IMG/VR virus record: IMGVR_UViG_3300028654_000009
Length of the DNA stretch: 64,000 nt
DNA from: a virus
Direction: 5' to 3' (one strand)
Within the stretch, counting starts at the first letter, position 1. Each line of letters starts with the position of its first letter. The notes below the pieces were generated by a model. That model had not been told where the DNA came from. It did not search any database and saw only the letters and a program-made list of their open reading frames with translations. Positions 4,098-58,861 of the stretch are shown piece by piece. The position numbers and the translations under genes are program-made.

Positions 4098-6875
4098 TTA
4101 ATTGCACCAGTGGGAAACGATGGTGACAAGGAACACTACGACACCGGCCGTGGTCACGGTCCCCATGTTTTTTGCACAAATAGCAAAGTGTTCGCCGGGC
4201 TGCACGAAGATATCCGGAGTCAAAATCTGGCCGCATTGGTTGGTAGGTATGAAACCTATCGCAGAGCCAGTAGGGATAGCGTGTAAGGACAAAGGCTTCC
4301 TTCGCGGTGCTTTTGTGTTAGCACTTTCGGCAGTAGCCAAAGAAGTGGCTGTGTGTCCCCAGGCGGCGGAGTAGTTGTATAGTACAGGGCCGCCAGTCAA
4401 AGCGGTGGTCACGATTGCTTCTATCTTGATAGAGTCGATAGCCAACGTTCTACCCGTTACTGTGCTGGAGCCGGCTGGGTTCGTGAAATCACAAACGATA
4501 CCGTCAGTACCTACAGTCAAGGTCGGTAGGCAGGCAAACTGTCCGCCCAAGCCGGTGCCCAAAGCTGCGGTGGTGTTGGTCATTGCGGCGCCGGCACCTG
4601 CCGCCTGGTTGTTGGCCAAGTTGGCCGTACTCCCCTGCGTCTGCCCACCAGCTCCTTGTGAACCCGTATTGCCATTCGAGCCCTGAGCCTCAACCCACGG
4701 CTGGTTTAGGTTCTGCCCAGCCATGTTAATGCCGTACTCGATGACCTTGAAGCTTAAAGCACCAGAAGCAGCTGAGCCGCCGATAGCGTGTCTGAAAGAG
4801 AATGGACACGAACCTGGACGGAACGGACGACCACTGGCGGCTGGCGAGTTAATTCGCCCCATCGACGTGTAGCCGTTACCGTCGCGCATGTCGAGCCAAA
4901 ACACACACACGTTCGGGTTGATATAAATCGATCCGTCGTACTCCACACCAGAGGTGGGAACAAAGTTGGCGCCGCCGAACACAGTTGCAAAAGCAGATGT
5001 CAGGGTTTCTGTGCCGGCGTTGTTGGCGACCCCGAACATGCCAGAAGAATTCAGACGGAAGTACGCCCCGTCGGTAGGAGCGTAAGGTGTCGAGGTGGGC
5101 CGCTGGAAGCAACCGAAGTCGATGGTGGTATTAGTGGCGTTCACCGTGCCCGTGAACATGAACTTAAAGTAGATGATCTGGGTACCCGAGGACCAGCAAG
5201 GGAAGAACCGCCGAGTAGAAAATGCAGCGCCGGTATTCGCAGTCGTGATCGATCCACCGTTGGTGGTCACTCCCGTACCTGGATAGGTCACCGTCATCGT
5301 GGTCGTATCGACCGTATGTTTACCTGTGTTTTGGGCGGTATAGCAGAAATTCTCCTGGTCGAACACGTTGTCAATGCTGACACGTGCGCTGAAGTCTTCG
5401 CTGGTTTCAGGAGAGAGAATCCACGGGAAGCCATTCGAGCTTCCGGCATCCGACTCAGTAAAGTTAGTAACCCTTAAAGCACCAGACTTGCCAGTATTGA
5501 GAGGGTTCGTTGTGCCCGGTGTGTAGGCGGGGTAGAATAGCGTGGCTGCCGCCTGATCGAGCCCACCAGACTGTCCAGCTGTAGTAGAGCCTTGAGCTAC
5601 TGCGCTTCCTCCACCTCCGCCAGCCGTAACGTTCACCCTCAGCGCTCCGGTGGTGTCTAACGAAAGCGGAGAGGTCTGGCCGCTGGTGTATGTAGGGCTG
5701 GCGGTGGCCACAGCTCCCTGCATAAGGGGACCCGACTGGCCAGAAGTGGTAGAGCCCTGGGCTAGAGGCAGCAGGGCCAACGTGGCCTGCGTAGCTATGG
5801 TGCCTATGGTGCCGATGTTGGCAGTGATGGTGCCAGAGACAGGTTGAGTAACGGCACTCCCGTCTACCTTCCATGCTACAGTGTTAGGCGTGTTGCCGGG
5901 TTGTACAGTCCAGGTGCCGGACTGAGAGGCCGGGATTGCCGACTGGTCAGACGCAATGGCTACGGCCAGCGAGGAGGCCATGACCTTCTGGCCGAGAGTG
6001 GCGGGGAGCTTCCCCGACATGGTGCTGACGGTAGCGTCCAGTGCCAATGAGCCTGAGGTGCCAATGTTGGCAGTGACAGTACCGGAGATGGTCGGGGTCC
6101 CGCTGATCGACACTGAGCCAGAGATCGGCTGGGTTACCGCACTACCGTCAACCTTCCAGGCTACGGTGTTGGCCGTGTTGCCGGGCTGGACTGTCCAGGT
6201 ACCGGACTGGGTTGCAGCTACGGTGCCCGATACAGGAACGGTACCCGAAATGGCGACTGTACCGCTGACGGGCTGTGTGGTGGCCGAGGCGTCTACCCTG
6301 AGAGCGCCAGCGGTCGTCAATGATAGCGGGGAGGTCTGGGCGGTGGTATAGGTGGGCGAACCGGTGGTGACTGCGCCTAGGGAAAGTCCGCCTTTTTGTC
6401 CGCTTGTCGTGGAGCCCTGAGAGACCTGAAGCCCAGTAACGGAGGCGTCTAGGGCGAGGGAGCCCGAGGTTCCAATGTTTGCCGTGACCGTGCCTGTGAC
6501 CGCCACGGAGCCCGTAATGGTAGTCGAGGTGAGGGAGACGGGGACCGTGTTGTTGGGGCTGATTGCCACCACGAGAGCTTTGTCGGTGGCGACAGCTGCT
6601 GTACTGGCGGCTTTGACAGTGGCAACGTTGGTGCCGTCAGTCAGCTTTGTCTGCTGCGTGCCACCGGTTAGGGTGGCGTCCAGGGCCAGGGTGCCGGCGG
6701 TCCCGATGTTAGCCGTAATCGTGCCAGAGACAGCCACAGGCGTCCCCGAGGCGATACCCTGAATGGTTATGACATCGGTCGAAGCGCTGCCGGCCGTCCC
6801 CAGGGCGGGCTGCTTGGCTGCGGTGGCTGCGCCCGTGGGGAGTACGCTCTGCTGCACCTGGGAAATTGTAAGCAC
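4098..6875 (-). CDS. Fibre-like structural protein with internal repeats
   Basis: 925 aa; repeats TANIGTxGxLALDA, QSGTWTVQPGNTxNTVAWKVDGSAVTQP and QGSTTSGQ; AATCTT box 5 nt upstream. Confidence 0.7.
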   Translation of the reverse strand: MLTISQVQQSVLPTGAATAAKQPALGTAGSASTDVITIQGIASGTPVAVSGTITANIGTAGTLALDATLTGGTQQTKLTDGTNVATVKAASTAAVATDKALVVAISPNNTVPVSLTSTTITGSVAVTGTVTANIGTSGSLALDASVTGLQVSQGSTTSGQKGGLSLGAVTTGSPTYTTAQTSPLSLTTAGALRVDASATTQPVSGTVAISGTVPVSGTVAATQSGTWTVQPGNTANTVAWKVDGSAVTQPISGSVSISGTPTISGTVTANIGTSGSLALDATVSTMSGKLPATLGQKVMASSLAVAIASDQSAIPASQSGTWTVQPGNTPNTVAWKVDGSAVTQPVSGTITANIGTIGTIATQATLALLPLAQGSTTSGQSGPLMQGAVATASPTYTSGQTSPLSLDTTGALRVNVTAGGGGGSAVAQGSTTAGQSGGLDQAAATLFYPAYTPGTTNPLNTGKSGALRVTNFTESDAGSSNGFPWILSPETSEDFSARVSIDNVFDQENFCYTAQNTGKHTVDTTTMTVTYPGTGVTTNGGSITTANTGAAFSTRRFFPCWSSGTQIIYFKFMFTGTVNATNTTIDFGCFQRPTSTPYAPTDGAYFRLNSSGMFGVANNAGTETLTSAFATVFGGANFVPTSGVEYDGSIYINPNVCVFWLDMRDGNGYTSMGRINSPAASGRPFRPGSCPFSFRHAIGGSAASGALSFKVIEYGINMAGQNLNQPWVEAQGSNGNTGSQGAGGQTQGSTANLANNQAAGAGAAMTNTTAALGTGLGGQFACLPTLTVGTDGIVCDFTNPAGSSTVTGRTLAIDSIKIEAIVTTALTGGPVLYNYSAAWGHTATSLATAESANTKAPRRKPLSLHAIPTGSAIGFIPTNQCGQILTPDIFVQPGEHFAICAKNMGTVTTAGVVVFLVTIVSHWCN

Positions 6876-24064: not shown

Positions 24065-24567
24065 TGGACGACTTGTTCCGGCAGTGCCAGACATTGGCGC
24101 TGGCGGACGTCCTTGCCGAAAAGCCTTCGGCCGAGTATTCGCTCCGGCGAATCTTCCGAGCGTATTCCGAAAAGTTCCACACACCCCTCCACCTGGTGGA
24201 CGACATTCCCTTGGTGGACGTTTTGACGCACTACTACGAGACCTGCTTTGAGTCAATGCTGGACGGCGACGATGCAGCCCAAAACGAGCTTGACGAGCTG
24301 ACCAAGACCCTCTCTATGTCCGAGCAAGAGGCCGAGAAGGCCCGCGCCGAGAAGGCCAAGCAGCAATACCGAGACTACCTGTTCGAGCAAGAGCTTAAGC
24401 GAGAGGCGGCGTCCCAGGAAAAGCCCAAGGCCCAGGAAGTCCTCAAGAAGACAGAGGAACTCATCAACGCTTTGCAGAACGAAGAAATCAAGATGCAGTT
24501 CGTCAGCGAAGAAGAGATGGATGCACTATCCAATCAGGACGGCGTGGGCTCTCTGCTGGACCTGTAA
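24064..24567 (+). CDS. Second tail assembly chaperone-like protein
   Basis: TAATG-coupled; acidic; YSEKFHTPL. Confidence 0.55.
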   Translation: MDDLFRQCQTLALADVLAEKPSAEYSLRRIFRAYSEKFHTPLHLVDDIPLVDVLTHYYETCFESMLDGDDAAQNELDELTKTLSMSEQEAEKARAEKAKQQYRDYLFEQELKREAASQEKPKAQEVLKKTEELINALQNEEIKMQFVSEEEMDALSNQDGVGSLLDL

Positions 24568-25910
24568 TCCTCCCAAAGCTGCGCCCGGGCGAAAGCCTGA
24601 CACCGGCCCATAAACTGGGCTGGCGTATCGTCTGGGTTGTCTAGGGCTAGCTTACGGGCCGCAGTATCGTCCAGGGTGATTCTAATGCCGAGGCGAACCT
24701 TGGCTTCGAAGTCGATGGCCCCTATCTCTACGATTGAGTCGATCCGCCCAGGCCTGGTGGCCGTGCCGTCCTCTCGGACCTGTCCCAATGCGGGGTCGAT
24801 GTGTTTTAGGTGGTTGGTGGTTATGAGCAATATCCTGCCATGAGAAGGGGCCAAGCCGTCAATCGCGTTGAGAATGGTATCGAAGGTCAGCTCGGAACCG
24901 GGTACCTGGTTTTCGCGACCATGAAAAACTGCGTCGAAGTCTTCCAACAGTATGATGTGCGGGGAGGGGAAAGAATCGGCGTACTCAATAACACTTCTGA
25001 AACCCTGGTTATCGATAGCCGCAAGATCGACGGTGAGTACAGTTAGGCCAAAGCGCTGGGATACAGCCCGGACCAGAGAGGTTTTGCCCGTACCCGGAGG
25101 ACCGTAAAGCAGGGCGCCATAGTTCCAGGGTACCCCTCGCTTTTTGTGCCATTCTTCGTGGTCTATGAAGAACTCCAATTCGCGCTCGATTCGCACCATG
25201 CCTGGCGACAGCTCAATGTTTGAGAAAGGGTCGGAGGTGGGATCAATGTCAACTTCCTCCTCGGAGGCCCCCATCCAAACCTGTCCGTTGTTGATATTCA
25301 ATCGCTTGAACTTGGCCGGACCCATAGCTCGGGTCAGCAATTTGTTGTTAGGGATGATGCTCCCGTGCTTGTCAACATTGCATCTTACAAACATGACGTT
25401 TTTGCTTGTGCCGGCGGCGCTGTCCGCCTTTTCAATAAGCTCCTTCGTCTCTAGGCCGATCCTGCGTACCAGTTTCCCCCAGTCAAAGGTAAACCGGAAG
25501 AAGATGAATGAGCCCACTATGGTATCGGGGACGTCGCCTCTCCCGCTTTCCCCAGGCTTCTTGAAGAACAGTGGCCTGCCCTCGAACAAAAAGAACATGT
25601 CTCCGGAGGTCAGCTCATGCGCGGTAACGTCGGTAAGCTGTTGCGATATCATCACCCTCATGGGGCTAACGCTTTTGGTTCCAAACGGAATGCGCACCCT
25701 GGAATTCCTATAGAAATATGAAAGCAACTCCTGGTTTGTGCCTTCTGAGCCGTACTTGATTTCCTCGAACAATAGGGTTTTCAGCACCCCAAGCGCAAAC
25801 GCCCCTATGTCCCGCAGGCTTGAGGCAACAACAGAGCCTATGAAGCCTGCGGCGCCGAGTTCGAACAGAAGCTTGTGAGCGAAAATGAAGGCTAGCACGG
25901 TTCCTCCCAA
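24534..25910 (-). CDS. BCS1-like AAA+ ATPase with N-terminal membrane anchor
   Basis: GALLYGPPGTGKTS, LLEDFD, LNAIDG, TTNH..IDPAL...RPGRID. Confidence 0.85.
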   Translation of the reverse strand: MGGTVLAFIFAHKLLFELGAAGFIGSVVASSLRDIGAFALGVLKTLLFEEIKYGSEGTNQELLSYFYRNSRVRIPFGTKSVSPMRVMISQQLTDVTAHELTSGDMFFLFEGRPLFFKKPGESGRGDVPDTIVGSFIFFRFTFDWGKLVRRIGLETKELIEKADSAAGTSKNVMFVRCNVDKHGSIIPNNKLLTRAMGPAKFKRLNINNGQVWMGASEEEVDIDPTSDPFSNIELSPGMVRIERELEFFIDHEEWHKKRGVPWNYGALLYGPPGTGKTSLVRAVSQRFGLTVLTVDLAAIDNQGFRSVIEYADSFPSPHIILLEDFDAVFHGRENQVPGSELTFDTILNAIDGLAPSHGRILLITTNHLKHIDPALGQVREDGTATRPGRIDSIVEIGAIDFEAKVRLGIRITLDDTAARKLALDNPDDTPAQFMGRCQAFARAQLWEDYRSSREPTPS

Positions 25911-44005: not shown

Positions 44006-46057
44006 TTAGGGCTTGAATGATGGTTTGGGAGCGGAACCTGGAAGAGCGGTAGAGGGCACGCCGGCCTTCACACCTGGAAGCTTGGGGGTCTTGGGGGCTG
44101 CCGGAGGGGCAGCAGCAGGAGCGGCCACAGCGGCAGCGCCAGGGGCCTTGGGCATCGCAGGCTTTGAGGCTGGTAGACCGGCCTTATCGAGGCCAGGCAT
44201 CGACATCGCATCGTTGCCGGTGCCTCCGCCCATGCCCATTTCGTCCTTCTGGGTGCGCTGCCATGGACGCCTGAGAGCCTGCCCCTGCACGCGCTTGGTC
44301 TCGGCGGCATATACGTCACGCCGGCCCTGTACGGCCTTCTTGGCAGGCTTAGGGTCGACGACCTCTTTAGAGGGTTCCTTCTCTGCAGGCTTGGGATCGA
44401 CGACCTCTTTAGAGGGCTCCTTCTCTGCCAAAGCCATACGGGTGCCCATTGCGCGGGTGGCACCAGCGAGAGATGAATGCTCGCTAGGAGCCGACCATCC
44501 CTTGTTGCCGATGCCCTTGAACTTAGCAATCAGCCCCGAGAGGAAGCCTACACCAGCAGCGTGCTTGTCGGCCTTGAGCTGTGCAGCCTCGTCCACCTTG
44601 GGCTTCATTGTGCCCTGGTCGGGATGAGAGGGCTTGCGGAGGAAGCCGCCGGTCGGGATAGGCGCCGAGGTAGGCATGGCCGGGCTTGGCGGAGCACTGC
44701 GCTTAGGCGGAGCGGTGATGCCCGGAAGGCGTGGGCCAGGGGACTGGGTGTGGTCCACGCTCATCTGGGCATAGTCGGCCTTGATAATGCGCTTGCCGTT
44801 ACAAACAGCATCCGACTCGGGCTTATCGTGGGTCACAAGCTCACCGTCCTGGCGAACCTTCGCGTGTGCTCCACAGAGAGAACACTTCTTGGTCTTTGGG
44901 CCGGTATCTTTCTTCTCTGCCTTCTTTGTCACCTTGCCGCCCGAACCCTCTGCTTCAATTACCTTCTCTTTCTTGTCGTCGGGAAGTACGGCGCCCTTGG
45001 TGGGCTTCTCGGTAGCAGACTCAACCTCGGCGATCTCCTTCGAGGCAGGTTTTTCTTCCTTGCGGACGCTGTTGTCAACCGACTGCTTGTTTTCCTCAAC
45101 AGGGGTACTAGCCATGATGCCGCAAGTATGACAAGCGAAGTGATCTCGATTGCCGAGAGAGCCGATGTGGGCATATCTTTCGGACTCGCCACATCCCGGG
45201 CACTGGCGACCCAAAGCCTGGCTGTCAGTCTCGGTTTCGGGATTGCCAAACTCGTCCTTCTTAAACTTGTCCTTAATCATGCCAGCCACATGCTGAATAG
45301 CCGGCTTGGCAGTAGCCAAAGCCACACCCACGCCGTGAGCAACGGCGGACATGTCGGCTTTCTTGAGAGCGACAGCCGCTTCCTTGGCCAGGACAAACTT
45401 TACCTCTTGCTCATGCTTATCCAGAGCTGCACCCAGCGCCTTAGCGAGGCCTTGAGTGATATCTTTGCGAGTGGGTGAATTGTCCATTTTTTGTCTTTCA
45501 ATAGATTGGGTTTGGAGTTGTGGATACAAATTGTGTTTCTTGATCCCCACAGGCAAGGGAGTAGCGCTGTTCAAAGGCGCTTTGTAAAGCTTGTTCTCAT
45601 CGAAATGCAGCCGCACATAGTCAGGGCGCTCTTGGTTGCCAATACTGGTGTAGTAATCCTCTGGCGGCTGGGTCGGATGGTACCCATAGACAGGCAGGCT
45701 AGGATGAAAACTCCCGTCCTTGTCTCCATTAGAGTAAAGCATCTCTGCGTGCTTGTGGCCGCGTCCGAAAACTACTGACTCTTGCCCATAAGCCTTCGCC
45801 AGCCCATACATCTGCTCGCGAGTAGGATTCCGCACCGTAAAGCCAGATTCGGGCGCTCCATAATGGCCCTGGTGTTTTTGGTACTGCAAACCTAACTGCT
45901 GCAGATTCCGCTCTAAAGACGGATTACCTCCCTGAGCCTGCACGGGAAACCTGGGGTTCTCGGCAGTGATCAGCCCGAACGTGCCCGAAGGGTCGAAAAT
46001 GGGATGACTCCGAAGCTCGGGTAGAGGCTCGGAGTAAGTGGGCATGTCCTGTGGCAT
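44006..46057 (-). CDS. Late multidomain protein (DUF3293-like N-terminus, two Zn ribbons, low-complexity spacers); probable internal head protein
   Basis: LITAENP...GHYGAPESGF...YGQESV; CPGC/CHTC; CSLC/H-C; AATCTT box; many hydrophobic-x-K|A/D/E motifs. Confidence 0.6.
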   Translation of the reverse strand: MPQDMPTYSEPLPELRSHPIFDPSGTFGLITAENPRFPVQAQGGNPSLERNLQQLGLQYQKHQGHYGAPESGFTVRNPTREQMYGLAKAYGQESVVFGRGHKHAEMLYSNGDKDGSFHPSLPVYGYHPTQPPEDYYTSIGNQERPDYVRLHFDENKLYKAPLNSATPLPVGIKKHNLYPQLQTQSIERQKMDNSPTRKDITQGLAKALGAALDKHEQEVKFVLAKEAAVALKKADMSAVAHGVGVALATAKPAIQHVAGMIKDKFKKDEFGNPETETDSQALGRQCPGCGESERYAHIGSLGNRDHFACHTCGIMASTPVEENKQSVDNSVRKEEKPASKEIAEVESATEKPTKGAVLPDDKKEKVIEAEGSGGKVTKKAEKKDTGPKTKKCSLCGAHAKVRQDGELVTHDKPESDAVCNGKRIIKADYAQMSVDHTQSPGPRLPGITAPPKRSAPPSPAMPTSAPIPTGGFLRKPSHPDQGTMKPKVDEAAQLKADKHAAGVGFLSGLIAKFKGIGNKGWSAPSEHSSLAGATRAMGTRMALAEKEPSKEVVDPKPAEKEPSKEVVDPKPAKKAVQGRRDVYAAETKRVQGQALRRPWQRTQKDEMGMGGGTGNDAMSMPGLDKAGLPASKPAMPKAPGAAAVAAPAAAPPAAPKTPKLPGVKAGVPSTALPGSAPKPSFKP
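44343..44428. repeat. 42-bp tandem duplication (EKEPSKEVVDPKPA x2)
   Basis: Visible in protein and DNA. Confidence 0.8.
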
Positions 46058-52168: not shown

Positions 52169-52981
52169 TTAAATCTTCGAGGCTATTCGCTCGATGAGAT
52201 CCGGCGTGATGTGTGACTCGACCTCCTCTAATGCCCAAGCGTATACCGAATCGAAGATGTGAACGGGCTGAAGACCCGGATGGAAGAACCCGTCTGGGTT
52301 CTTGGATGTGGCCACACGAAAGGTTAATACACTTTTTTTAGTGCCCCCAGAAGGTGTAGCCGACTGATACACAGAAACGCCCCTAAGGAACGGTATGCCT
52401 GTCTTGCCCTGCTTAACACCTCCCACTGGTCCGTGACCCTGCCCTGGACCTTCTCCGCTCTTGAGAGGTTTGTCCTCGATGTTGAACGAGTGAATCTTGC
52501 CCATCTTGGGACGGCCTTGTGCGTCCCGCTCGATTTTGGCTAGCGGAATCTTCCGCTTCTTCAGCTCGGCCCGAACGGTATCCACGGTCTCTTTGGAGGA
52601 CTCTGGAGTGTTCGTAGGGCCCTTCCCGGGGCCCACGTGCTGGAATGGTACCACCAGGTACTTATGCCCGTCCTTCGAGGTCTTGGCCGAAGGGCTGTTC
52701 AGCAATGCGTCCAGCATAGAATGCGGCTCCATGCCGTCGTCGATCCATACCGAACCTTGTGCAAGGGATAGGTAGTGCTCCCCGTTGCCTTCGTGGGTAA
52801 GACTCAGGGCTTCCACAAACATTTGCCTACGAGAATGCAGACGTTCGTTTGCTAGTTCTAAAGCTTTGGCGTGTACCTGTATGCTGAGGTCATTGGCGGC
52901 TTGCTCGGCTTCTTGCTTGATGATGTCTGCTAAGTCCTTGAAGCCAGCCAGGCAGCTGAGGTCGATATTGATGTTATACAT
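52169..52981 (-). CDS. Neck/tail-completion protein (HK97 gp10-like role)
   Basis: KDGHKYLVVPF, TFRVATS...FFHPG; TAATG-coupled to upstream giant ORF. Confidence 0.6.
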   Translation of the reverse strand: MYNINIDLSCLAGFKDLADIIKQEAEQAANDLSIQVHAKALELANERLHSRRQMFVEALSLTHEGNGEHYLSLAQGSVWIDDGMEPHSMLDALLNSPSAKTSKDGHKYLVVPFQHVGPGKGPTNTPESSKETVDTVRAELKKRKIPLAKIERDAQGRPKMGKIHSFNIEDKPLKSGEGPGQGHGPVGGVKQGKTGIPFLRGVSVYQSATPSGGTKKSVLTFRVATSKNPDGFFHPGLQPVHIFDSVYAWALEEVESHITPDLIERIASKI

Positions 52982-55900
52982 TACGGGCTATTCGGCTCCC
53001 TACTTGAGACAGCGTGACTGTTGGCCCCTCCGCCACCCGCGCCTCCGGGCTCAAGTCCCTGAATGAGGCCGGCTGTAACACCTTTCCACCCCACCGTGCC
53101 GTCCGCATGTTGCACCTTCAAGTGTCCATTGTGTAGCGAGCCCACAGGCAGCTCCAGGTCCTTGTGGGTCGGAGGCATGGACTCCTTGTTTAGCTCCTTC
53201 TCGGGCGGGAATTTCTCGTTGGGTTCGATTTCTTCTTTGGCTACATGGTGGGAGCAGTCTGGGCCACAAATCAAAAGGTCGTCCTCCTTCTCGGCCGGGA
53301 ATTCGCCCTTGAGGGTGTATTGGTAGGGCCCATGCCATTTAACGCCCCGGTTATCAACATAGTCGTCTGGCTCTGGGTTGTAACTCATCCCGTGCTTCTC
53401 GGCCAAGGACTGATGAACCCTGTGAGCCATTTCAGAATGGCTGCCTCCTTGAACGTCTTTGATCCCAAGCTTGTTCTTGGCGTGCGAGTAAAGAGCCTCG
53501 TACATGGCCTTCCCCAGACCTCGCCCCCGGAGACTGCTGCTCAGAAAAGAATGGGGGGTCAGCATCCCTTCCCATTTCTCTTTTTCCGCACCTGTGCCTA
53601 GGCTACGGTTGCGATAGTGAACGTCCGAATGGACATCTCCGTCTGTCATATGTTGAGCATCGTTGTGCAGCTCGGCAACGATATGATGGACATTGTACTT
53701 CCCTCCGACTCCATGCCGGCGCTCCTGCACAACCAGGCTGTGGGTCTTGCGCATCTCCTCGGGCAGCAGGTGTGAGTAGTTGTAGTTTCTGGCTACCACC
53801 GTCCCATGGAGGGTCCTGTCCACGTTTTGATACTTACCCACAGGAATGTCCTTGATGGCCTTCTCGACCTTTTGGTCATGACAGCCCTTCGGGCAAAGCA
53901 GAAGCTTTTCTTCGTCAACGTTCGGAGCCAGCTCGGCCTTGAGGGCATACTTATAAGGCATGTGTGAGATGTTCGAGCCATGGATTCCGGAACCGTCGGG
54001 ATTGATAGGATCGACTTTGTAGTCCAGGCCGTGTGTTGCCGCCAAGCTTCGATGTACAGCACTCGCCTGCGCAGAATGCATCCCTCCGGCAACCCCCTCG
54101 ACCCCCAGCTTGTTCTTTGCGTGGGAATACGTGGCTAGATACATCGCCTTCCCGAAGCCTTTCCCGTGGTGGGCCAGATCGAGGTCAGCATGGGGCTCGA
54201 TGTGCTTATTTTTGATATACCCCTGCACATTCCCGACCAACGGATTGTTGGACGATTCGTCGTTGATGTACGTGCTGAGGTAGTTTTTCGAAGGGTTGTG
54301 GCGGACGAACATCTTGAAGTTCGAAGGCGTACCTTGTGGGAGCAAATGGGAGTAGTCGTGTAGGTGGACGTCGTTGCCATTGGCGTCTTGGTAGGTGCTC
54401 ATATGTTTGCCGGTAGGAACGTCGGCGATGGCTTTCTCGATCTTCTGGTCGTGACAACCAGGAGGGCAAAGCAACAAAGTTTCCTCATCATGATCTGGGG
54501 CTAGCTCGCCTTTGAGTTGGTACTGGTAGCCGGCGTAAGGGTAACGTGTGGCCGAGATTTCAGGATCGTCAGAACCGTCCTCGGGACGAAGGACGTAGGG
54601 AACGTGTTCCAGGCCGTGTTTCTTCGACAGAGCGATATGGACCGCTTCTGCTTGTGGAGAATGAGGTCCGCCCTGTACGTGATCGATCCCCGCCACATGT
54701 TTTGCATGGGCGTAAAGAGCCTCATACATAGCTTTACCTAAACCCTGTCCGCGAAATTGCTCGTCTAGATCGGAGTGTGGTTCAAGCCTCGTAAATTTGG
54801 CGAAAGGATCGTACCCCTTAAAGGTTCTGACACTGTTGGGCGGCCGCACGTATCCAGTAACGGCTCCCACATATCTGGGGCGGTCTCGTCCTGGTCTCGT
54901 CAATCTCGCCACTATCCGCTCTTTGCCGTTTTCATTGTTTTGGAAAGAATGATGAACGTGGAGCGACAGGCCCTGCTCTTTTTGTTCTGGCGTCAAAAGA
55001 TGGCCGTAATCAAACTTCTTCTGAGTTACCGGGTCACCTGAATCATCGTCACCGTTAGGAAATGTGGTTTCCCCTTGAAACTTGCCCGGCTTCAGGTCAG
55101 AGATCGCTTTCTCGATCTTCTGGTCGTGACAGCCGGGCGGACAGAGCAACAGAGCCTCTTCATCATGATCGGGGGCCAGTTCATCTTTGAGTTGGTAATG
55201 GTAGCTATCATACGGGTACTGCTCCAAAGGCAGACCGAATCCGCTCTTGGGGTTTCTTTTCTTTGAAACGTAGTTTAGCCCCATTTCACCGGCTAGCGAT
55301 CGATGAACCCTGTCCGCCGCCGCTGAGTGTTCCCCTCCTACGACATGGTTCACCCCCAAAGTATGATGGACATGAGCATAGAGGGCCTTGTAAGCCGCCT
55401 TGCCCAGCCCCTTGCCACGATATTCCTTCTCTAACTGGGAGTGGGGCTCTAGGTATGGCTCCCCTTGGAGTTGATCTTGGAATTCGTACTCGGCATTTGT
55501 GGACGGATTAATGTGCCCATGGGCTCCACCGAGATTCTGCTGCACCCCGTAGTTGGATTTGCTCAGCCTTGCCTCGACCATAGATGGGAATTGTTTGTGC
55601 CCCTCCTTTCTCTGATGCACCTTCAGCGTAAGCCCCATCGAGCGCTGGGACGGGGTCAAAAGGTGGTTGTAGTCATAGACTTGGTTTACGATGTTTGTTT
55701 CAGGGATCGGTCGGTCTTCTTCATGGGGACCCGGAGAGATATCAGAGATAGCCTTCTCGATCTTCTGGTCATGGCAGCCAGGAGGACAAAGCAGCAGGGC
55801 TTCCTCATCATGATCTGGCGCTAACTCGCCTTTGATCTGGTAGTCGTAGTCCATATATGGATAACGCTGTACATGTTCGTCGTCCGGGTCTTCACCGTAT

Positions 55901-58278
55901 GCTTCCCTTTTTTCTGGGAAGTACCACAGCCCGTGTGCAACTGCCAAGGCTCGATGAACCTTAGAAGCGTCTTCTGAATGGACTCCCCCGGTTACGCGAT
56001 CGACTCCAGCTATGTGTTTAGCGTGCGTATATAACGCCTCATACATTTTTTTACCCAACCCCTGACCACGGTAGCTTGGTCCTAGAGAAGAATGGGGTTC
56101 TATAGAGCCTTCTACAATGTTCGCGTGTACCTGTCCCACACTACGTAACGGTGACGATGTTTCTGGCTGCCATGACCCACTCCCTGTGCTGTGATATACC
56201 CGAGATTTAATCTCGTCCTGCCGCCCAGGATGTACCATGTGCGACACTATCAGTTTGTAGCCCTGTTTTGTGTGTTCCGGGGTTAACATATGACTATAAT
56301 CATAGTTCTGCTGGGTAGAGCCTCTGGAGTTCAAAGGTGTGGGCTCCCCGACCGTCTTACCCGGCTTCAGGTCGGCGATAGCCTTCTTCAGCCCCGCCCG
56401 AACCACGTACGCCGGCAGGTGTGTCACGCCAGCGGCCTTAGCCGCCTCCACGCGGTGTGTCCCGTCCTTTACGGACCACGCCCCTGGGTTGCCAGGAGCG
56501 ACCACGATAGGGGGAACCTCGTCGCCAGCTCGGAGCATTTTGTGGTAAAGGGAATACCGGTCTTTATTGGCAGCCCCTCCACTGTTGCCCCCCTCTAGCA
56601 AAGCGACGGGCACCATAATCCGCTTCAGAGACTTGGTGTCGCCGTTGGTATAGTGACTAGCTACCGACGCCAGGTAGTTCTGGTCGAATGCTTGGCGGTC
56701 TGGGTGGTTCTTGCTGGGGATTTTTAGAGCCGACGTACCCCAGTCATCGGACGTCCATACTTTTGGGCGTTTTTCAGCCTTCTCCAATTCTTGGTCTCCT
56801 GTCTGGAGACCTCTCGCCAGCCCCACCACCGATTGAACCAAAGAAAGAATCGACTTGTACGTCTCGGGGAACTGCCCCTTCAGTTGGGTAATGACCGGTA
56901 ACTGCCCCTTCAGTTGGGTAAGGGACTCGGCCACACGCTGCTTAAGACTCTCCATCTCTTCCGAATTGCGAGCCGCAGACGCCCGGTCTTGCTTGTCCTG
57001 GGAGCCGGCCAGCTCATGGAATTGGTCTTCGGCGTCCTTGGCCTGGTGACTCATTTCGGGGGCGGGGCCCTGGTCGGCAATCGAATGTGCGACCTCTCCT
57101 TCGGAGTGTTCTTGCGTCTGAACGTGCGGGTGGACCTTCTTGGGGGGCGCCACCCCATGCTGGTGGCCGCCATGGGCGGCCGAGCCTTCGTTTTCGGCTT
57201 TGGTCATCTTAGGGATGGGCACCGTGGAGCTAGTAACGAAAAACTTGGGGTCGGAATTGACCTTGCCGTACATCGCCGTATGTGGGGGTCGCTTGGGTGG
57301 CGTTATAAGTTTGCGGATGTCGTGATCTGTAAGATCGCCATCGCTCTCGCCCATGTGGCCGAAAGCCGGGATCACAGGATTGCCAAATTGATGGTGCGTA
57401 GGGGCATACTTCATACGCCCCAAAAACATGTGCTGGTGTGAGCCAAACGGATGGTTGGTATACCCATGAGCCAAAATAACATTGGTACTCAACTTCGGGT
57501 TCTCATTAAGCCTGTCACGCAAATCGACTTCCAGTGGCGGGCCCTTCCAGCTTCCCTCTTTCCTTCCCCATTCGCCATCATCGAAAGCCATGCCCCCAAA
57601 TGGATTACCGTAAGCCTTGTTTATGGTATGAAGCTCGTCTAGACCGTGCGAGGGGTGCTCAAAGTCCTTGTGGTACTGGTCGTTGCCGGCCGATTTCCAT
57701 CCCTGCATCTCCAAAATCCCCGCAGCCTTCTCAGTGTCGGGGTGACCTGCCGGTAAGTAGGTCGTCGCGCGATACCTAGTTGCAGGCTGAGTGAATAGAG
57801 GGTCCTGGTCCCCAAAACTCTTGGCCAGCCCAATCTGGGGGCTCAGGTACTCGTCGGCAATTTTCTCGTCTTCCGTCTTGGGCTTATTCGCCTCGGCTAG
57901 GGTTTGGGGGACCGTTTCGTCGAAGAGCCGGACTCTATCGCGACCTTCTATTTTTCCTACCAAAAGGGCTTGCCCAGCTTCAGACATACGTCTCCCGATG
58001 CCGATAGTCAAAGTGGCTCCGGTTGCAGAATGATACTTCTGGCGGACGGATTCGACTTCTCCTAGTGCCGAGACCGGGATCTCGGCTAGATAACACTCAT
58101 CTCCCCCTTCCTCGACGACAGAGCCGCCGTGCTCAAGAGCCCAAGACACAAGAATCTGATTGCCAGCCTCGATCCTCTGGTTGATTCGGCGCACCTCTTC
58201 AACGTCATCTCTCTGGATGCTAGCTCCGATGAGATACCCGATTCGATCACCGTCGCAGGCTAGGAACAGTTTATCCAT
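52981..58278 (-). CDS. Modular polyprotein: mCpol-like cyclase + unknown domain(s) + ParB-like domain + 5 GNAT domains
   Basis: DGDRIG...GGDE; PPIVV...DGTHR; five (R/H)GxG(L/F)GKxxY motifs; repeated linker KxELAPDHDEExLLLCPPGCHDQKIEKAI; likely start ATG 58278. Confidence 0.85.
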   Translation of the reverse strand: MDKLFLACDGDRIGYLIGASIQRDDVEEVRRINQRIEAGNQILVSWALEHGGSVVEEGGDECYLAEIPVSALGEVESVRQKYHSATGATLTIGIGRRMSEAGQALLVGKIEGRDRVRLFDETVPQTLAEANKPKTEDEKIADEYLSPQIGLAKSFGDQDPLFTQPATRYRATTYLPAGHPDTEKAAGILEMQGWKSAGNDQYHKDFEHPSHGLDELHTINKAYGNPFGGMAFDDGEWGRKEGSWKGPPLEVDLRDRLNENPKLSTNVILAHGYTNHPFGSHQHMFLGRMKYAPTHHQFGNPVIPAFGHMGESDGDLTDHDIRKLITPPKRPPHTAMYGKVNSDPKFFVTSSTVPIPKMTKAENEGSAAHGGHQHGVAPPKKVHPHVQTQEHSEGEVAHSIADQGPAPEMSHQAKDAEDQFHELAGSQDKQDRASAARNSEEMESLKQRVAESLTQLKGQLPVITQLKGQFPETYKSILSLVQSVVGLARGLQTGDQELEKAEKRPKVWTSDDWGTSALKIPSKNHPDRQAFDQNYLASVASHYTNGDTKSLKRIMVPVALLEGGNSGGAANKDRYSLYHKMLRAGDEVPPIVVAPGNPGAWSVKDGTHRVEAAKAAGVTHLPAYVVRAGLKKAIADLKPGKTVGEPTPLNSRGSTQQNYDYSHMLTPEHTKQGYKLIVSHMVHPGRQDEIKSRVYHSTGSGSWQPETSSPLRSVGQVHANIVEGSIEPHSSLGPSYRGQGLGKKMYEALYTHAKHIAGVDRVTGGVHSEDASKVHRALAVAHGLWYFPEKREAYGEDPDDEHVQRYPYMDYDYQIKGELAPDHDEEALLLCPPGCHDQKIEKAISDISPGPHEEDRPIPETNIVNQVYDYNHLLTPSQRSMGLTLKVHQRKEGHKQFPSMVEARLSKSNYGVQQNLGGAHGHINPSTNAEYEFQDQLQGEPYLEPHSQLEKEYRGKGLGKAAYKALYAHVHHTLGVNHVVGGEHSAAADRVHRSLAGEMGLNYVSKKRNPKSGFGLPLEQYPYDSYHYQLKDELAPDHDEEALLLCPPGCHDQKIEKAISDLKPGKFQGETTFPNGDDDSGDPVTQKKFDYGHLLTPEQKEQGLSLHVHHSFQNNENGKERIVARLTRPGRDRPRYVGAVTGYVRPPNSVRTFKGYDPFAKFTRLEPHSDLDEQFRGQGLGKAMYEALYAHAKHVAGIDHVQGGPHSPQAEAVHIALSKKHGLEHVPYVLRPEDGSDDPEISATRYPYAGYQYQLKGELAPDHDEETLLLCPPGCHDQKIEKAIADVPTGKHMSTYQDANGNDVHLHDYSHLLPQGTPSNFKMFVRHNPSKNYLSTYINDESSNNPLVGNVQGYIKNKHIEPHADLDLAHHGKGFGKAMYLATYSHAKNKLGVEGVAGGMHSAQASAVHRSLAATHGLDYKVDPINPDGSGIHGSNISHMPYKYALKAELAPNVDEEKLLLCPKGCHDQKVEKAIKDIPVGKYQNVDRTLHGTVVARNYNYSHLLPEEMRKTHSLVVQERRHGVGGKYNVHHIVAELHNDAQHMTDGDVHSDVHYRNRSLGTGAEKEKWEGMLTPHSFLSSSLRGRGLGKAMYEALYSHAKNKLGIKDVQGGSHSEMAHRVHQSLAEKHGMSYNPEPDDYVDNRGVKWHGPYQYTLKGEFPAEKEDDLLICGPDCSHHVAKEEIEPNEKFPPEKELNKESMPPTHKDLELPVGSLHNGHLKVQHADGTVGWKGVTAGLIQGLEPGGAGGGGANSHAVSSREPNSP

Positions 58279-58861
58279 TGGGGAGCCTCGCACCCTTACG
58301 GCTGTTTTCTTCCACAGAAAGCGGCCTCAGGTTTGTATAGTGATTGACTCTCAAAAATCCTTCCCTATCATTCTCTAGGTCTACGGAAGACAGAGGTATG
58401 ATGTGGTCGATGCTCCAGACTGTTCCGTAGTTCTCCCAGGTCCACCCGGATTTGAATTGGGATTCAAGGTGGACCCTTGCTTGTTCTCCCGTGCACCCCA
58501 TATCTCTAACCGACGATCCCGCCCTGCTCCCCCTTTTGATAGCTTTCACAATTCTAGATCGGAGGTTGCATAGTATCCTAAATCCGGGGTCTATTTTTTT
58601 TCGAGCGATACGATATTGGTTGTTACTGTCAATCTCTTTTTTACGATTTCGCTCGTAGTGTTTCTTCCTGTTCGCTACAACCTGTTCCGGATTCTCTTCT
58701 TTCCACCGTTTCACACTAAGATATACTGTTCCCGAATTTTTGATCCGATATTGTTTGGCATAAAGGGCCGCACAGAGTTTGCAAGGATTTCCTTTTTTGC
58801 TAAATTCAATGATAGGCTTCTCGACCTTACATTTCGAACAAATCTTCTGTTGCGGCACCAC
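58271..58861 (-). CDS. HNH homing endonuclease
   Basis: CSKC...CKLC; WTWENYG..WSIDHIIPLS...HYTNLRPLSVEENSRK; AT-richer than flanks. Confidence 0.9.
   Translation of the reverse strand: MVPQQKICSKCKVEKPIIEFSKKGNPCKLCAALYAKQYRIKNSGTVYLSVKRWKEENPEQVVANRKKHYERNRKKEIDSNNQYRIARKKIDPGFRILCNLRSRIVKAIKRGSRAGSSVRDMGCTGEQARVHLESQFKSGWTWENYGTVWSIDHIIPLSSVDLENDREGFLRVNHYTNLRPLSVEENSRKGARLPNG

What the first reader, a model, noticed from the sequence alone, without database searches (positions are those of the whole stretch)
53235..55845. Conserved Cys/His linker cassette between cargo domains: putative packaging tag flanked by cleavage sites
Seen: the peptide Y(Q/A)(L/I)K|xELAPDHDEExLLLCPPGCHDQKIEK|AI recurs at ~55748-55840, 55101-55200, 54427-54525 and 53853-53950, with a degenerate copy at ~53235-53320. 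It is far more conserved than the GNAT domains it separates, and DNA differences between copies are largely synonymous, so selection acts on the peptide. It is bounded by Lys motifs on both sides and holds C-x3-C-H. Inference: an excisable metal-binding or scaffold-binding tag, analogous to the T4 capsid-targeting sequence. It may also serve as a recombination handle for adding or swapping cargo, and could be an engineering tool for loading proteins into capsids.
Basis: partly seen in the sequence, partly recalled or inferred. Interest (0 to 1): 0.72.

Follow-up and report, generated by a model that had tools for sequence, protein, structure and literature searches.

The report
Conserved spacer peptide between phage GNAT modules
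A large uncultured phage related to Myxococcus phage Mx1 strings five acetyltransferase-like modules into one giant protein, and joins them with a nearly identical 26-residue acidic Cys/His peptide that sits between two probable head-protease cut sites and looks like a cut-out spacer belonging to each module, not a general capsid-loading tag.

Summary
ORF 52981-58278(-) encodes a polyvalent protein: mCpol, a ParB-like domain, five GNAT-fold units and a conserved C-terminal tail. After each unit comes K|xE-LAPDHDEExLLLCPPGCHDQKIEK|AI, in four good copies and one degenerate copy. Copies 1-3 are 93% identical in protein, but their synonymous sites are saturated (pS 0.56-0.90, pN 0.03). The unit bodies are only 34-42% identical. 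This is selection on the peptide, not gene conversion.

- AlphaFold puts the peptide outside the fold, and many homologues stop exactly at Y.Y.LK.
- The flanking Lys motifs match a motif that is enriched in scaffold-like proteins and found at the capsid-protein N-terminus of Mx1 and four Mx1-like phages. Excision by the prohead protease is therefore plausible, but not shown.
- A T4-like packaging tag is not supported. The peptide occurs nowhere else in the window or in the databases searched. Its counterparts in relatives (a GPGxG segment or a Zn ribbon) almost always follow this GNAT unit. GNAT-less relatives keep mCpol, ParB and the tail without it.
- The Cys residues are not conserved in relatives, so metal binding would be specific to this lineage and remains untested.

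Other first readers of this scan noted the same stretch in this genome.

The parts
52981..58278 (-). Polyvalent protein gene, 1765 aa from the ATG. An in-frame GTG at 58293 would give 1770 aa, and that numbering is used in this report.
   Evidence: Pfam and PHROGs find mCpol, ParB-like and GNAT domains.
57928..58266 (-). N-terminal mCpol (minimal CRISPR polymerase) domain, aa 10-122.
   Evidence: Pfam PF18182, E 2.1e-9, 38.2 bits against a cutoff of 26.4. Relatives P0075 and P0158 carry the same Pfam domain.
56386..56616 (-). ParB-like domain, about aa 560-636, ending in AGLKK|AI at the junction to GNAT unit 1.
   Evidence: phrog_1033, E 1e-4. Homologous region in P0075 and P0158.
55831..56382 (-). 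GNAT-fold unit 1, aa 638-821.
   Evidence: Unit alignment and Pfam Acetyltransf_1.
55753..55830 (-). Linker copy 1, aa 822-847: GELAPDHDEEALLLCPPGCHDQKIEK.
55186..55752 (-). GNAT-fold unit 2, aa 848-1036.
   Evidence: AlphaFold mean pLDDT 83-86, with most 10-residue blocks of the unit above 90. Foldseek hits to GNAT acetyltransferases.
55108..55185 (-). Linker copy 2, aa 1037-1062: DELAPDHDEEALLLCPPGCHDQKIEK.
   Evidence: pLDDT is below 50 in the two-unit model.
54511..55107 (-). GNAT-fold unit 3, aa 1063-1261.
54433..54510 (-). Linker copy 3, aa 1262-1287: GELAPDHDEETLLLCPPGCHDQKIEK.
53938..54432 (-). GNAT-fold unit 4, aa 1288-1452.
53860..53937 (-). Linker copy 4, aa 1453-1478: AELAPNVDEEKLLLCPKGCHDQKVEK.
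53308..53859 (-). GNAT-fold unit 5, aa 1479-1662.
53236..53307 (-). Degenerate linker copy 5, aa 1663-1686: GEFPAEKEDDLLICGPDCSHHVAK. It precedes the C-terminal tail.
52984..53181 (-). Conserved C-terminal tail module, aa 1705-1770 (..HKDLELPVGSLHNGHLKVQHADG..W..SSREP). It lies at the extreme C-terminus of many relatives, with or without GNAT units.
   Evidence: Weak likeness to a single beta-propeller blade.

Best explanation
The peptide is the spacer part of a repeated cargo cassette, [GNAT-fold unit + spacer], inside a late-expressed and probably virion-delivered polyvalent protein. That protein is built as mCpol, helical region, ParB-like domain, five cassettes and a C-terminal tail.

Each folded unit begins right after (I/V/K)-(E/K)-K|A-I and ends at Y-x-(L/I)-K|x-E. 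Both bonds fit the motif that the Mx1-group head-maturation protease most likely cuts, after Lys preceded by a hydrophobic residue and followed by a small residue and often Glu. Processing inside the prohead would then free five separate GNAT domains. It would either excise a 26-residue acidic peptide from each junction or, if only the downstream bond is cut, leave the peptide as a C-terminal tail on each domain.

The acidic-hydrophobic-CPPGCH core is this lineage's version of an element that relatives place at the same position. In them it is an acidic stretch followed by hh-GPGxG-hhF, or a CxxC...CxxC zinc ribbon. I read it as a small, compact turn or knuckle, possibly stabilised by metal. 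It would serve the cassette it belongs to, either by presenting the two scissile bonds or by acting on its own GNAT until it is cut. It would not be a general address label for the capsid.

Shown: the repeat, the selection on the peptide, its position outside the fold, its coupling to the GNAT unit, and the enrichment of the motif in head proteins of relatives.

Inferred: packaging, cleavage at either bond, any metal binding, and the spacer's role in processing.
For: - Repeat and selection.
- Domain content.
- Outside the fold: the linker has pLDDT below 50 and pTM is 0.54 in the two-unit model, while KAIxD and Y.Y.LK have pLDDT above 90. Nine of 168 homologous units end the protein at Y.Y.LK.
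- Cassette behaviour: P0158 and P0159 have mCpol, ParB and the tail with no GNAT and no spacer. P0075 has one GNAT plus a GPGxG spacer. This phage has five.
- Counterparts in relatives: 28 of 34 GPGxG-type motif matches lie directly after a GNAT unit end. After a stricter check of the GNAT core, 22 of 25 are closed by a second h-x-K-small site 22-37 residues after the first, against 26 residues here.
- The junction motif is independent of the GNAT fold. It follows the ParB domain (ELHK|SE in P0075, ELAK|EE in P0158). It is enriched in scaffold-like proteins of Mx1 (6 observed, 2.2 expected) and of four Mx1-like IMG/VR phages (6-10 observed, about 2 expected, including PTLK|GE). It also sits at the capsid-protein N-terminus (LRK|AME, LVK|ALE, LIK|AME, LMK|AME).
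- P2' is Glu in 143 of 159 homologous junctions.
- Context: same strand as and just upstream of the tail-sheath block. The downstream phrog_16819 gene is syntenic in a relative.
Against: - No proteomic or biochemical evidence exists that this protein is packaged or cut. The protease, scaffold and capsid genes of this phage lie outside the window and could not be read, so the cut-site motif was tested only in relatives.
- LK-x-E and xK-A-I could simply be structural caps of the GNAT-fold unit, because they are conserved across the whole family.
- A mere spacer would not need 93% identity. In relatives with two copies of the spacer, it is not generally better conserved than the unit body. So this phage's peptide must do something more specific than I can name.
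- A low pLDDT may reflect the shallow alignment for this lineage-specific peptide. The single-unit model gave it pLDDT 60-80 with two short helices.
Confidence: 0.45

Rival explanations
1. An uncleaved structural or regulatory extension. The peptide stays attached and acts as a small metal-binding or disulfide-forming knuckle (C-x3-C-H plus acidic residues). It might pair with other copies as half-sites, in the manner of a zinc hook, to compact or oligomerise the array. Or it might fold back on its own GNAT as an autoinhibitory C-terminal tail. Self-pairing would explain why the copies are kept identical.
For: - Cys and His are invariant in all five copies and are placed across a PPG turn.
- Relatives carry true CxxC...CxxC ribbons at the same position (P0019, P0045, L020, L023, L026).
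- The single-unit AlphaFold model gives the downstream linker pLDDT 60-80, while the orphan upstream copy scores below 50.
- Conservation is unusually high for a spacer.
Against: - The Cys positions are Gly in the homologous GPGxG spacers.
- Only three ligands are conserved in all copies.
- The two-unit model gives pLDDT below 50 and no fixed domain arrangement.
- The GNAT unit exists without any extension in many homologues.
Confidence: 0.25
2. The peptide is a portable capsid-targeting or scaffold-binding tag, analogous to the T4 capsid-targeting sequence. It loads each cargo domain into the prohead and is then clipped off.
For: - It is bracketed by two candidate protease sites.
- It is under strong purifying selection as a predicted flexible peptide, as expected for a short binding motif.
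- It is acidic, like the internal peptides of T4 (from general knowledge, not tested here).
Against: - It is absent from every other ORF of the window and from all databases searched.
- Its counterpart in relatives nearly always follows this one domain type.
- Relatives with no GNAT keep mCpol, ParB and the tail and have no such peptide, so loading of the polyprotein does not depend on it.
- The domains are already tethered in one chain, so separate tags are redundant.
- The conserved C-terminal tail is a better candidate address.
Confidence: 0.12
3. A DNA-level phenomenon. The similarity is maintained by gene conversion, or the repeat serves as a recombination handle for gaining and losing cassettes.
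For: - The cassette number varies among relatives: 0, 1 or 5.
- Copies 2 and 3 share one exact run of 26 nt.
Against: - Synonymous sites between copies are saturated (pS 0.56-0.90) while pN is 0.03.
- DNA identity is 74-79% over the 123-nt junction and 79-86% over the linker itself.
- Other exact runs are 17-18 nt or shorter.
- Conversion would give near-identical DNA.
Confidence: 0.03

Closest known systems
Polyvalent proteins of phages and conjugative elements (Iyer, Burroughs, Anand, de Souza, Aravind 2017, PMC5512222)
   Same: Many enzymatic domains of the conflict type sit in one phage polypeptide. GNAT and ParB (DdrB-like) domains are listed among typical components. The paper predicts packaging into the head and proteolytic release of the domains.
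   Different: That paper proposes release mostly by built-in metallopeptidase domains, and the word 'linker' does not occur in its main text (0 occurrences). Here no peptidase domain was detected in the protein. The junctions carry the motif of the head-maturation protease and a repeated 26-residue spacer. mCpol is also not mentioned in that paper's main text (0 occurrences).
Myxococcus phage Mx1 polyvalent protein WNM70333 ('NUDIX hydrolase') and its head module (OR576727.2)
   Same: This is the only relative in the phage collection, at 32% identity over 55% of the query. It has the same GNAT-fold unit ending in YALK|SE and a ParB-like end. The same K|S/A-E motif is found in its scaffold-like protein, at its capsid N-terminus and in its protease polyprotein.
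   Different: Mx1 has one GNAT unit and no Cys/His or GPGxG spacer. Its other modules (Nudix and others) differ.
T4 capsid-targeting sequence of the internal proteins (IPIII), and the protease-processed ejection proteins of phiKZ/SPN3US-type phages (PMC10052503, PMC7411985)
   Same: A short peptide is removed by the prohead protease from proteins that travel in the head. Multiple head proteins are trimmed at one consensus motif.
   Different: The T4 sequence is N-terminal, is shared by several different proteins and is cut after Glu. The phiKZ-group sites are also after Glu (from my own knowledge). Here the peptide is internal, repeated within one protein, restricted to one domain type, and the candidate cut is after Lys. 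Targeting activity is not supported.
GPGxG-type spacers and zinc-ribbon spacers in homologous GNAT-bearing phage proteins (P0007, P0009, P0031, P0037, P0075; P0019, P0045, L020)
   Same: They occupy the same position after Y.Y.LK-x-E, have the same acidic start and a similar length (22-37 aa), and are closed by a second h-x-K-small site.
   Different: The Cys-Pro-Pro-Gly-Cys-His core is unique to this phage. Only here are the copies within one protein kept almost identical.

Membership tests
Phage polyvalent protein (Iyer et al. 2017) | Several distinct enzymatic or effector domains in one polypeptide of a phage or conjugative element | tested here: met
   mCpol (PF18182), a ParB-like domain and five GNAT-fold units in one 1765-1770 aa ORF.
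Phage polyvalent protein (Iyer et al. 2017) | Encoded in a tailed-phage genome with head and tail genes | tested here: met
   Tail sheath phrog_279 lies on the same strand. Relatives lie in Mx1-like phage contigs whose capsid protein is 57-61% identical to that of Mx1.
Phage polyvalent protein (Iyer et al. 2017) | Packaged in the virion and delivered with the DNA | not testable with these tools
   No virion proteome exists for this phage or for Mx1 in the papers searched.
T4-type capsid-targeting sequence | Short N-terminal peptide of the cargo | tested here: not met
   The peptide is internal and lies C-terminal to each GNAT unit.
T4-type capsid-targeting sequence | Shared by several different head-internal proteins of the same phage | tested here: not met
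   It is found only in this ORF within the 64-kb window. The rest of the genome could not be read. No hit in protein or contig collections.
T4-type capsid-targeting sequence | Removed by the prohead protease at its consensus site | tested here: inconclusive
   Both flanks fit the motif that is enriched in scaffold-like proteins and at the capsid N-terminus of relatives. No cleavage data exist.
T4-type capsid-targeting sequence | Sufficient to load a foreign protein into the capsid | not testable with these tools
   This needs a fusion experiment.
Zinc knuckle or ribbon | Four Cys/His ligands at fixed spacing in every copy | tested here: inconclusive
   H-x7-C-x3-C-H is present in copies 1-3. 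Only C-x3-C plus a nearby His is present in all five copies.
Zinc knuckle or ribbon | Ligands conserved in homologues | tested here: not met
   Homologous spacers read GPGxG at the Cys positions. Some relatives have unrelated CxxC...CxxC ribbons at that place instead.
Zinc knuckle or ribbon | Binds metal | not testable with these tools
   This needs ICP-MS or a colorimetric assay.
Integral element of the GNAT fold | Required for, and packed into, the domain | tested here: not met
   Nine of 168 homologous units end the protein at Y.Y.LK, and others carry only 5-7 residue spacers. The linker has pLDDT below 50 in the two-unit model. Foldseek alignments to GNATs span roughly 130-210 columns, mostly about 135-165. 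Their ranges in the model were not printed, so this does not by itself show that the linker is excluded.

The most novel reading that the evidence does not exclude
The peptide is a new kind of modular adaptor for virion cargo. Each enzyme cassette would carry a protease-bracketed, self-pairing half metal site (CPPGCH). Before maturation these sites would bundle the five cassettes, or several polyproteins, inside the prohead. Cutting at both Lys sites would then dissolve the bundle and free the enzymes for ejection. If the peptide also proved sufficient to load or release foreign proteins, it would be a compact engineering handle for putting enzymes into capsids.
Probability: 0.1. Interest if true: 0.75.

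Novelty: new variant of a known kind. Interest (0 to 1): 0.5.

Why it matters
How phages load, keep inactive and then release enzyme cargo that enters the next host is known in detail for only a few model phages.

This protein shows a clear cassette logic. The number of GNAT cassettes is 0, 1 or 5 among close relatives. Each cassette brings its own spacer, bracketed by sites that look like those of the head protease. One lineage holds that spacer almost invariant while everything around it drifts.

That gives a directly testable system with one protease, one substrate and five identical junctions. It can address how polyvalent proteins are cut up. It can also show whether short spacers do more than separate domains, for example by binding metal, docking the protease or inhibiting the enzyme.

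The practical promise as a capsid-loading tag is not supported by the distribution data.

Tried and rejected
- Gene conversion and a DNA-level function were rejected: synonymous sites are saturated and exact runs are short.
- Other carriers of the peptide were sought and none found. Searches covered a six-frame motif scan of the window, two word-based searches of 5.8 billion proteins with the linker region (near and shorter lengths), IMG/VR, a back-translated CPPGCHDQK pattern in JGI metagenome contigs, the ESM Atlas and PDB sequences (best E 0.76).
- No whole genome is held for the window. This phage's own protease, scaffold and capsid genes, which earlier notes place beyond the window's end, could not be read. 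I tested the cut-site motif in Mx1 and four IMG/VR relatives instead.
- I considered a heme c-type CxxxCH site or a Sco/CuA-like copper site, from memory only. There is no export signal or supporting context, and copy 5 breaks the CH. I did not pursue these.
- Internal promoters or terminators in the linkers: nothing above shuffled background.
- I asked whether spacers are generally better conserved than unit bodies in relatives that have two copies. They are not: one of four cases. The extreme conservation is specific to this phage.
- The SSREP ending shared with ORF 24534-25910 is a chance-level five-residue match.
Full report
WHAT IS THERE

The finding lies inside one long minus-strand ORF, 52981-58293 from a GTG. 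The ATG five codons later, at 58278, is the start used in a public copy of the protein. I number residues from the GTG.

Pfam and PHROGs find these domains:
- an N-terminal mCpol domain (PF18182, E 2e-9);
- a ParB-like segment around aa 576-634;
- repeated partial matches to GNAT acetyltransferase models.

A self-alignment resolves five tandem units of 191-225 residues. Each starts KAIxD(L/I/V)xxG...DYSHLL, carries the acetyl-CoA motif R/HGxG(L/F)GK, and ends Y-x-Y-x-(L/I)-K. An AlphaFold model of one unit (mean pLDDT 83) matches GNAT acetyltransferases in the PDB.

- copies 1-3: (G/D)ELAPDHDEE(A/T)LLLCPPGCHDQKIEK
- copy 4: AELAPNVDEEKLLLCPKGCHDQKVEK
- copy 5 (degenerate): GEFPAEKEDDLLICGPDCSHHVAK

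The coordinates agree with the finding.

IS IT MORE THAN CHANCE, AND WHAT KEEPS IT?

Copies 1-3 are 93% identical in protein. The unit bodies are 29-42% identical, and even their best core is only 51-60%. Between linker copies 1-3 the nonsynonymous difference is 0.029 per site. The synonymous difference is 0.56-0.90, which is saturated.

DNA identity is 79-86% over the linker and 74-79% over the 123-nt junction. The longest exact runs are 17-26 nt. So the peptide is held by purifying selection. It is not homogenised by gene conversion, and it is a poor recombination substrate.

IS IT PART OF THE FOLD?

In the two-unit model (U2-spacer-U3, mean pLDDT 86):
- the segments KAIxD and Y.Y.LK have pLDDT above 90;
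- residues 1039-1060 fall below 50;
- pTM is 0.54, so there is no fixed arrangement of the two units.

In the single-unit model the downstream spacer scored 60-80 with two short helices, and the orphan upstream copy scored below 50.

The homologues give evidence that does not depend on any model. A full HMMER scan of 1.84 billion representative proteins gave 406 hits, many with 2-6 units. Among 168 unit ends in the best 150 hits, nine are the protein's own C-terminus at Y.Y.LK. Forty-six are followed by a spacer of only 5-7 residues. The unit therefore does not need the peptide.

WHAT DO RELATIVES HAVE AT THIS PLACE?

None of the 150 best hits has the Cys version. Two word-based searches of 5.8 billion proteins with the linker region, IMG/VR and a back-translated pattern in JGI metagenome contigs also found nothing.

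A subfamily carries a clearly homologous spacer at the same position: an acidic stretch, then (I/L/M/F)(I/M)GPG(K/R/H)G(V/I)(V/I)F, then (L)x(E/D)K.
- Twenty-eight of 34 motif matches lie directly after a GNAT unit end.
- After a stricter check of the GNAT core, 22 of 25 are closed by a second hydrophobic-x-K-small site 22-37 residues after the first. The distance here is 26 residues.
- The two Cys of this phage align with two Gly.

Other relatives have genuine CxxC...CxxC ribbons at the same place (P0019, P0045, L020, L023, L026). So the position regularly hosts a small compact element, but the Cys/His chemistry is specific to this lineage.

THE CASSETTE

A search with the C-terminal 71 residues found the closest architectures:
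- P0158 and P0159: mCpol, helical region, ParB-like domain and the same tail, with no GNAT and no spacer.
- P0075: the same frame with one GNAT unit plus one GPGxG spacer.
- This phage: five units, each with a spacer.

So the spacer travels with the GNAT unit as one cassette. It does not travel with the tail or the frame. A polyprotein without it keeps everything else. This is the main argument against a general packaging tag.

A conserved tail, H(H/K)LxLPxGS..NGKxKVxHxDG..W...SSREP, sits at the extreme C-terminus of many relatives with diverse upstream content. It is a better candidate for an address or anchoring element.

ARE THE LYS FLANKS CUT SITES?

This phage's head genes lie beyond the window, and no genome is held. 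Earlier notes of this scan (unchecked AI notes) proposed a motif [LMV]-x-K-[AS] for this genome. I tested the idea on other DNA.

In Myxococcus phage Mx1, the only relative in the phage collection:
- The scaffold-like protein upstream of the capsid gene carries LAK|AE, ALK|SE, LAK|SE twice, and LKK|SD. That is 6 matches against 2.2 expected, and 19 of 1000 shuffles reached 6.
- The capsid protein starts ...ELRK|AMEAGNFNA.
- The 1240-aa protease polyprotein repeats FAK|AMEAGNFNA.

Four Mx1-like IMG/VR phages also encode this GNAT family, and their capsid proteins are 57-61% identical to that of Mx1. In them:
- The ORF upstream of the capsid gene has 6-10 matches against about 2 expected, including PTLK|GE, PAMK|GE and LSK|SE.
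- The capsid N-termini read LVK|ALE, LVK|ALE, LIK|AME and LMK|AME.

The same motif follows the ParB domain in P0075 and P0158. P2' is Glu in 143 of 159 GNAT junctions.

In this protein the motif also brackets the His-rich helical region (MTK|AE, LEK|AE) and the ParB end (LKK|AI). The count is 19 matches against 8 expected, though the repeated units are not independent, and four of the matches are the buried GLGK(A) acetyl-CoA motif.

This makes cutting at YQLK|GE and at IEK|AI plausible. It is not proof. Both motifs could also be structural caps of the unit.

MECHANISM I COMMIT TO (confidence about 0.45)

The protein is a late, probably head-loaded polyvalent protein. The head protease separates its modules at the Lys sites. 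The 26-residue acidic Cys/His peptide is the cassette's own spacer. It is either excised or left as a C-terminal tail, and its compact turn (possibly metal-stabilised) serves processing or control of its own GNAT.

What remains unexplained is why this lineage keeps the copies at 93% identity. Relatives with two copies do not do this. That points to a specific partner: the protease, a metal, or other copies of the same peptide.

RIVALS
- An uncleaved metal-binding, self-pairing or autoinhibitory extension: 0.25.
- A DNA-level repeat: 0.03.

COMPARISON WITH WHAT IS KNOWN

The protein fits the polyvalent proteins of Iyer et al. 2017 (PMC5512222). That paper lists GNAT and ParB domains and predicts packaging and proteolytic release, mostly by built-in metallopeptidases. 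The word 'linker' does not occur in its main text, and neither does mCpol (0 occurrences each).

Processing of head-internal and ejection proteins by the prohead protease is established in T4 and in phiKZ/SPN3US-type phages (PMC10052503, PMC7411985). There the cut is after Glu, and the T4 targeting sequence is N-terminal and shared among different proteins. That last point is from my own knowledge.

The present case is a new variant of this known kind. The spacer itself is new as a sequence.

LIMITS
- No cleavage, packaging or metal data exist.
- The same stretch was noted by other first readers of this scan in the same genome.

Noticed in passing
window 52984-53181 (-), aa 1705-1770: A conserved C-terminal tail, H(H/K)LxLPxGS..NGKxKVxHxDG..W..AG.I....SSREP, lies at the very C-terminus of many relatives, with or without GNAT units. 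It weakly resembles a single PQQ-type beta-propeller blade (the designed 'Cake' proteins). Each repeat scores only 6-7 bits, so the summed E-value is inflated. A lone blade would have to oligomerise, so this may be the anchoring or loading element.
   Followed up: partly
P0158, P0159, P0075 (relatives): Close relatives share the frame mCpol, helical region, ParB-like domain and tail, with 0 or 1 GNAT cassettes against 5 here. The GNAT array is therefore a recent, lineage-specific expansion by cassette duplication.
   Followed up: partly
L017:9003-12722 and L001:2952-4352 (Myxococcus phage Mx1): The 1240-aa Mx1 'putative prohead protease' carries, right after its protease part, a near copy of the capsid protein's N-terminal segment (FAK|AMEAGNFNAAPSTL against LRK|AMEAGNFNAKPSTL). 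The copy starts at the candidate cut site.
   Followed up: partly
window 56782-57198 (-), aa 366-504: A His-rich, low-complexity stretch plus a helical segment (...SLKQRVAESLTQLKGQLPVITQLKGQFPETYKSILSLVQSVVGLARGL) is bracketed by MTK|AE and LEK|AE. The helical part is conserved in P0075, P0158, P0159 and P0007, so it could be a scaffold-like or docking region.
   Followed up: no
P0019, P0045; L020 about 5800-6000; L023; L026: In several relatives the spacer position after the GNAT unit, or before the tail, is occupied by a CxxC...CxxC zinc-ribbon-like element in place of the GPGxG segment.
   Followed up: partly
window 52169-52981 (-) and L002:11412-12254: The gene directly downstream of the polyvalent gene belongs to phrog_16819 (unknown function). 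It holds the same position in an IMG/VR relative, so this gene pair is conserved.
   Followed up: no
window 44006-46057 (-): A 683-aa ORF next to the tail sheath has a weak DUF3293 match at its N-terminus. It also has more hydrophobic-x-K-small motifs than expected (7 against 3.2), so it may be another processed virion protein.
   Followed up: no
window 24534-25910 (-): An ATPase-like ORF ends ...SSREPTPS, like the polyvalent protein's ...SSREPNSP. Only five residues match (BLASTP E 0.87), so this is probably chance.
   Followed up: yes
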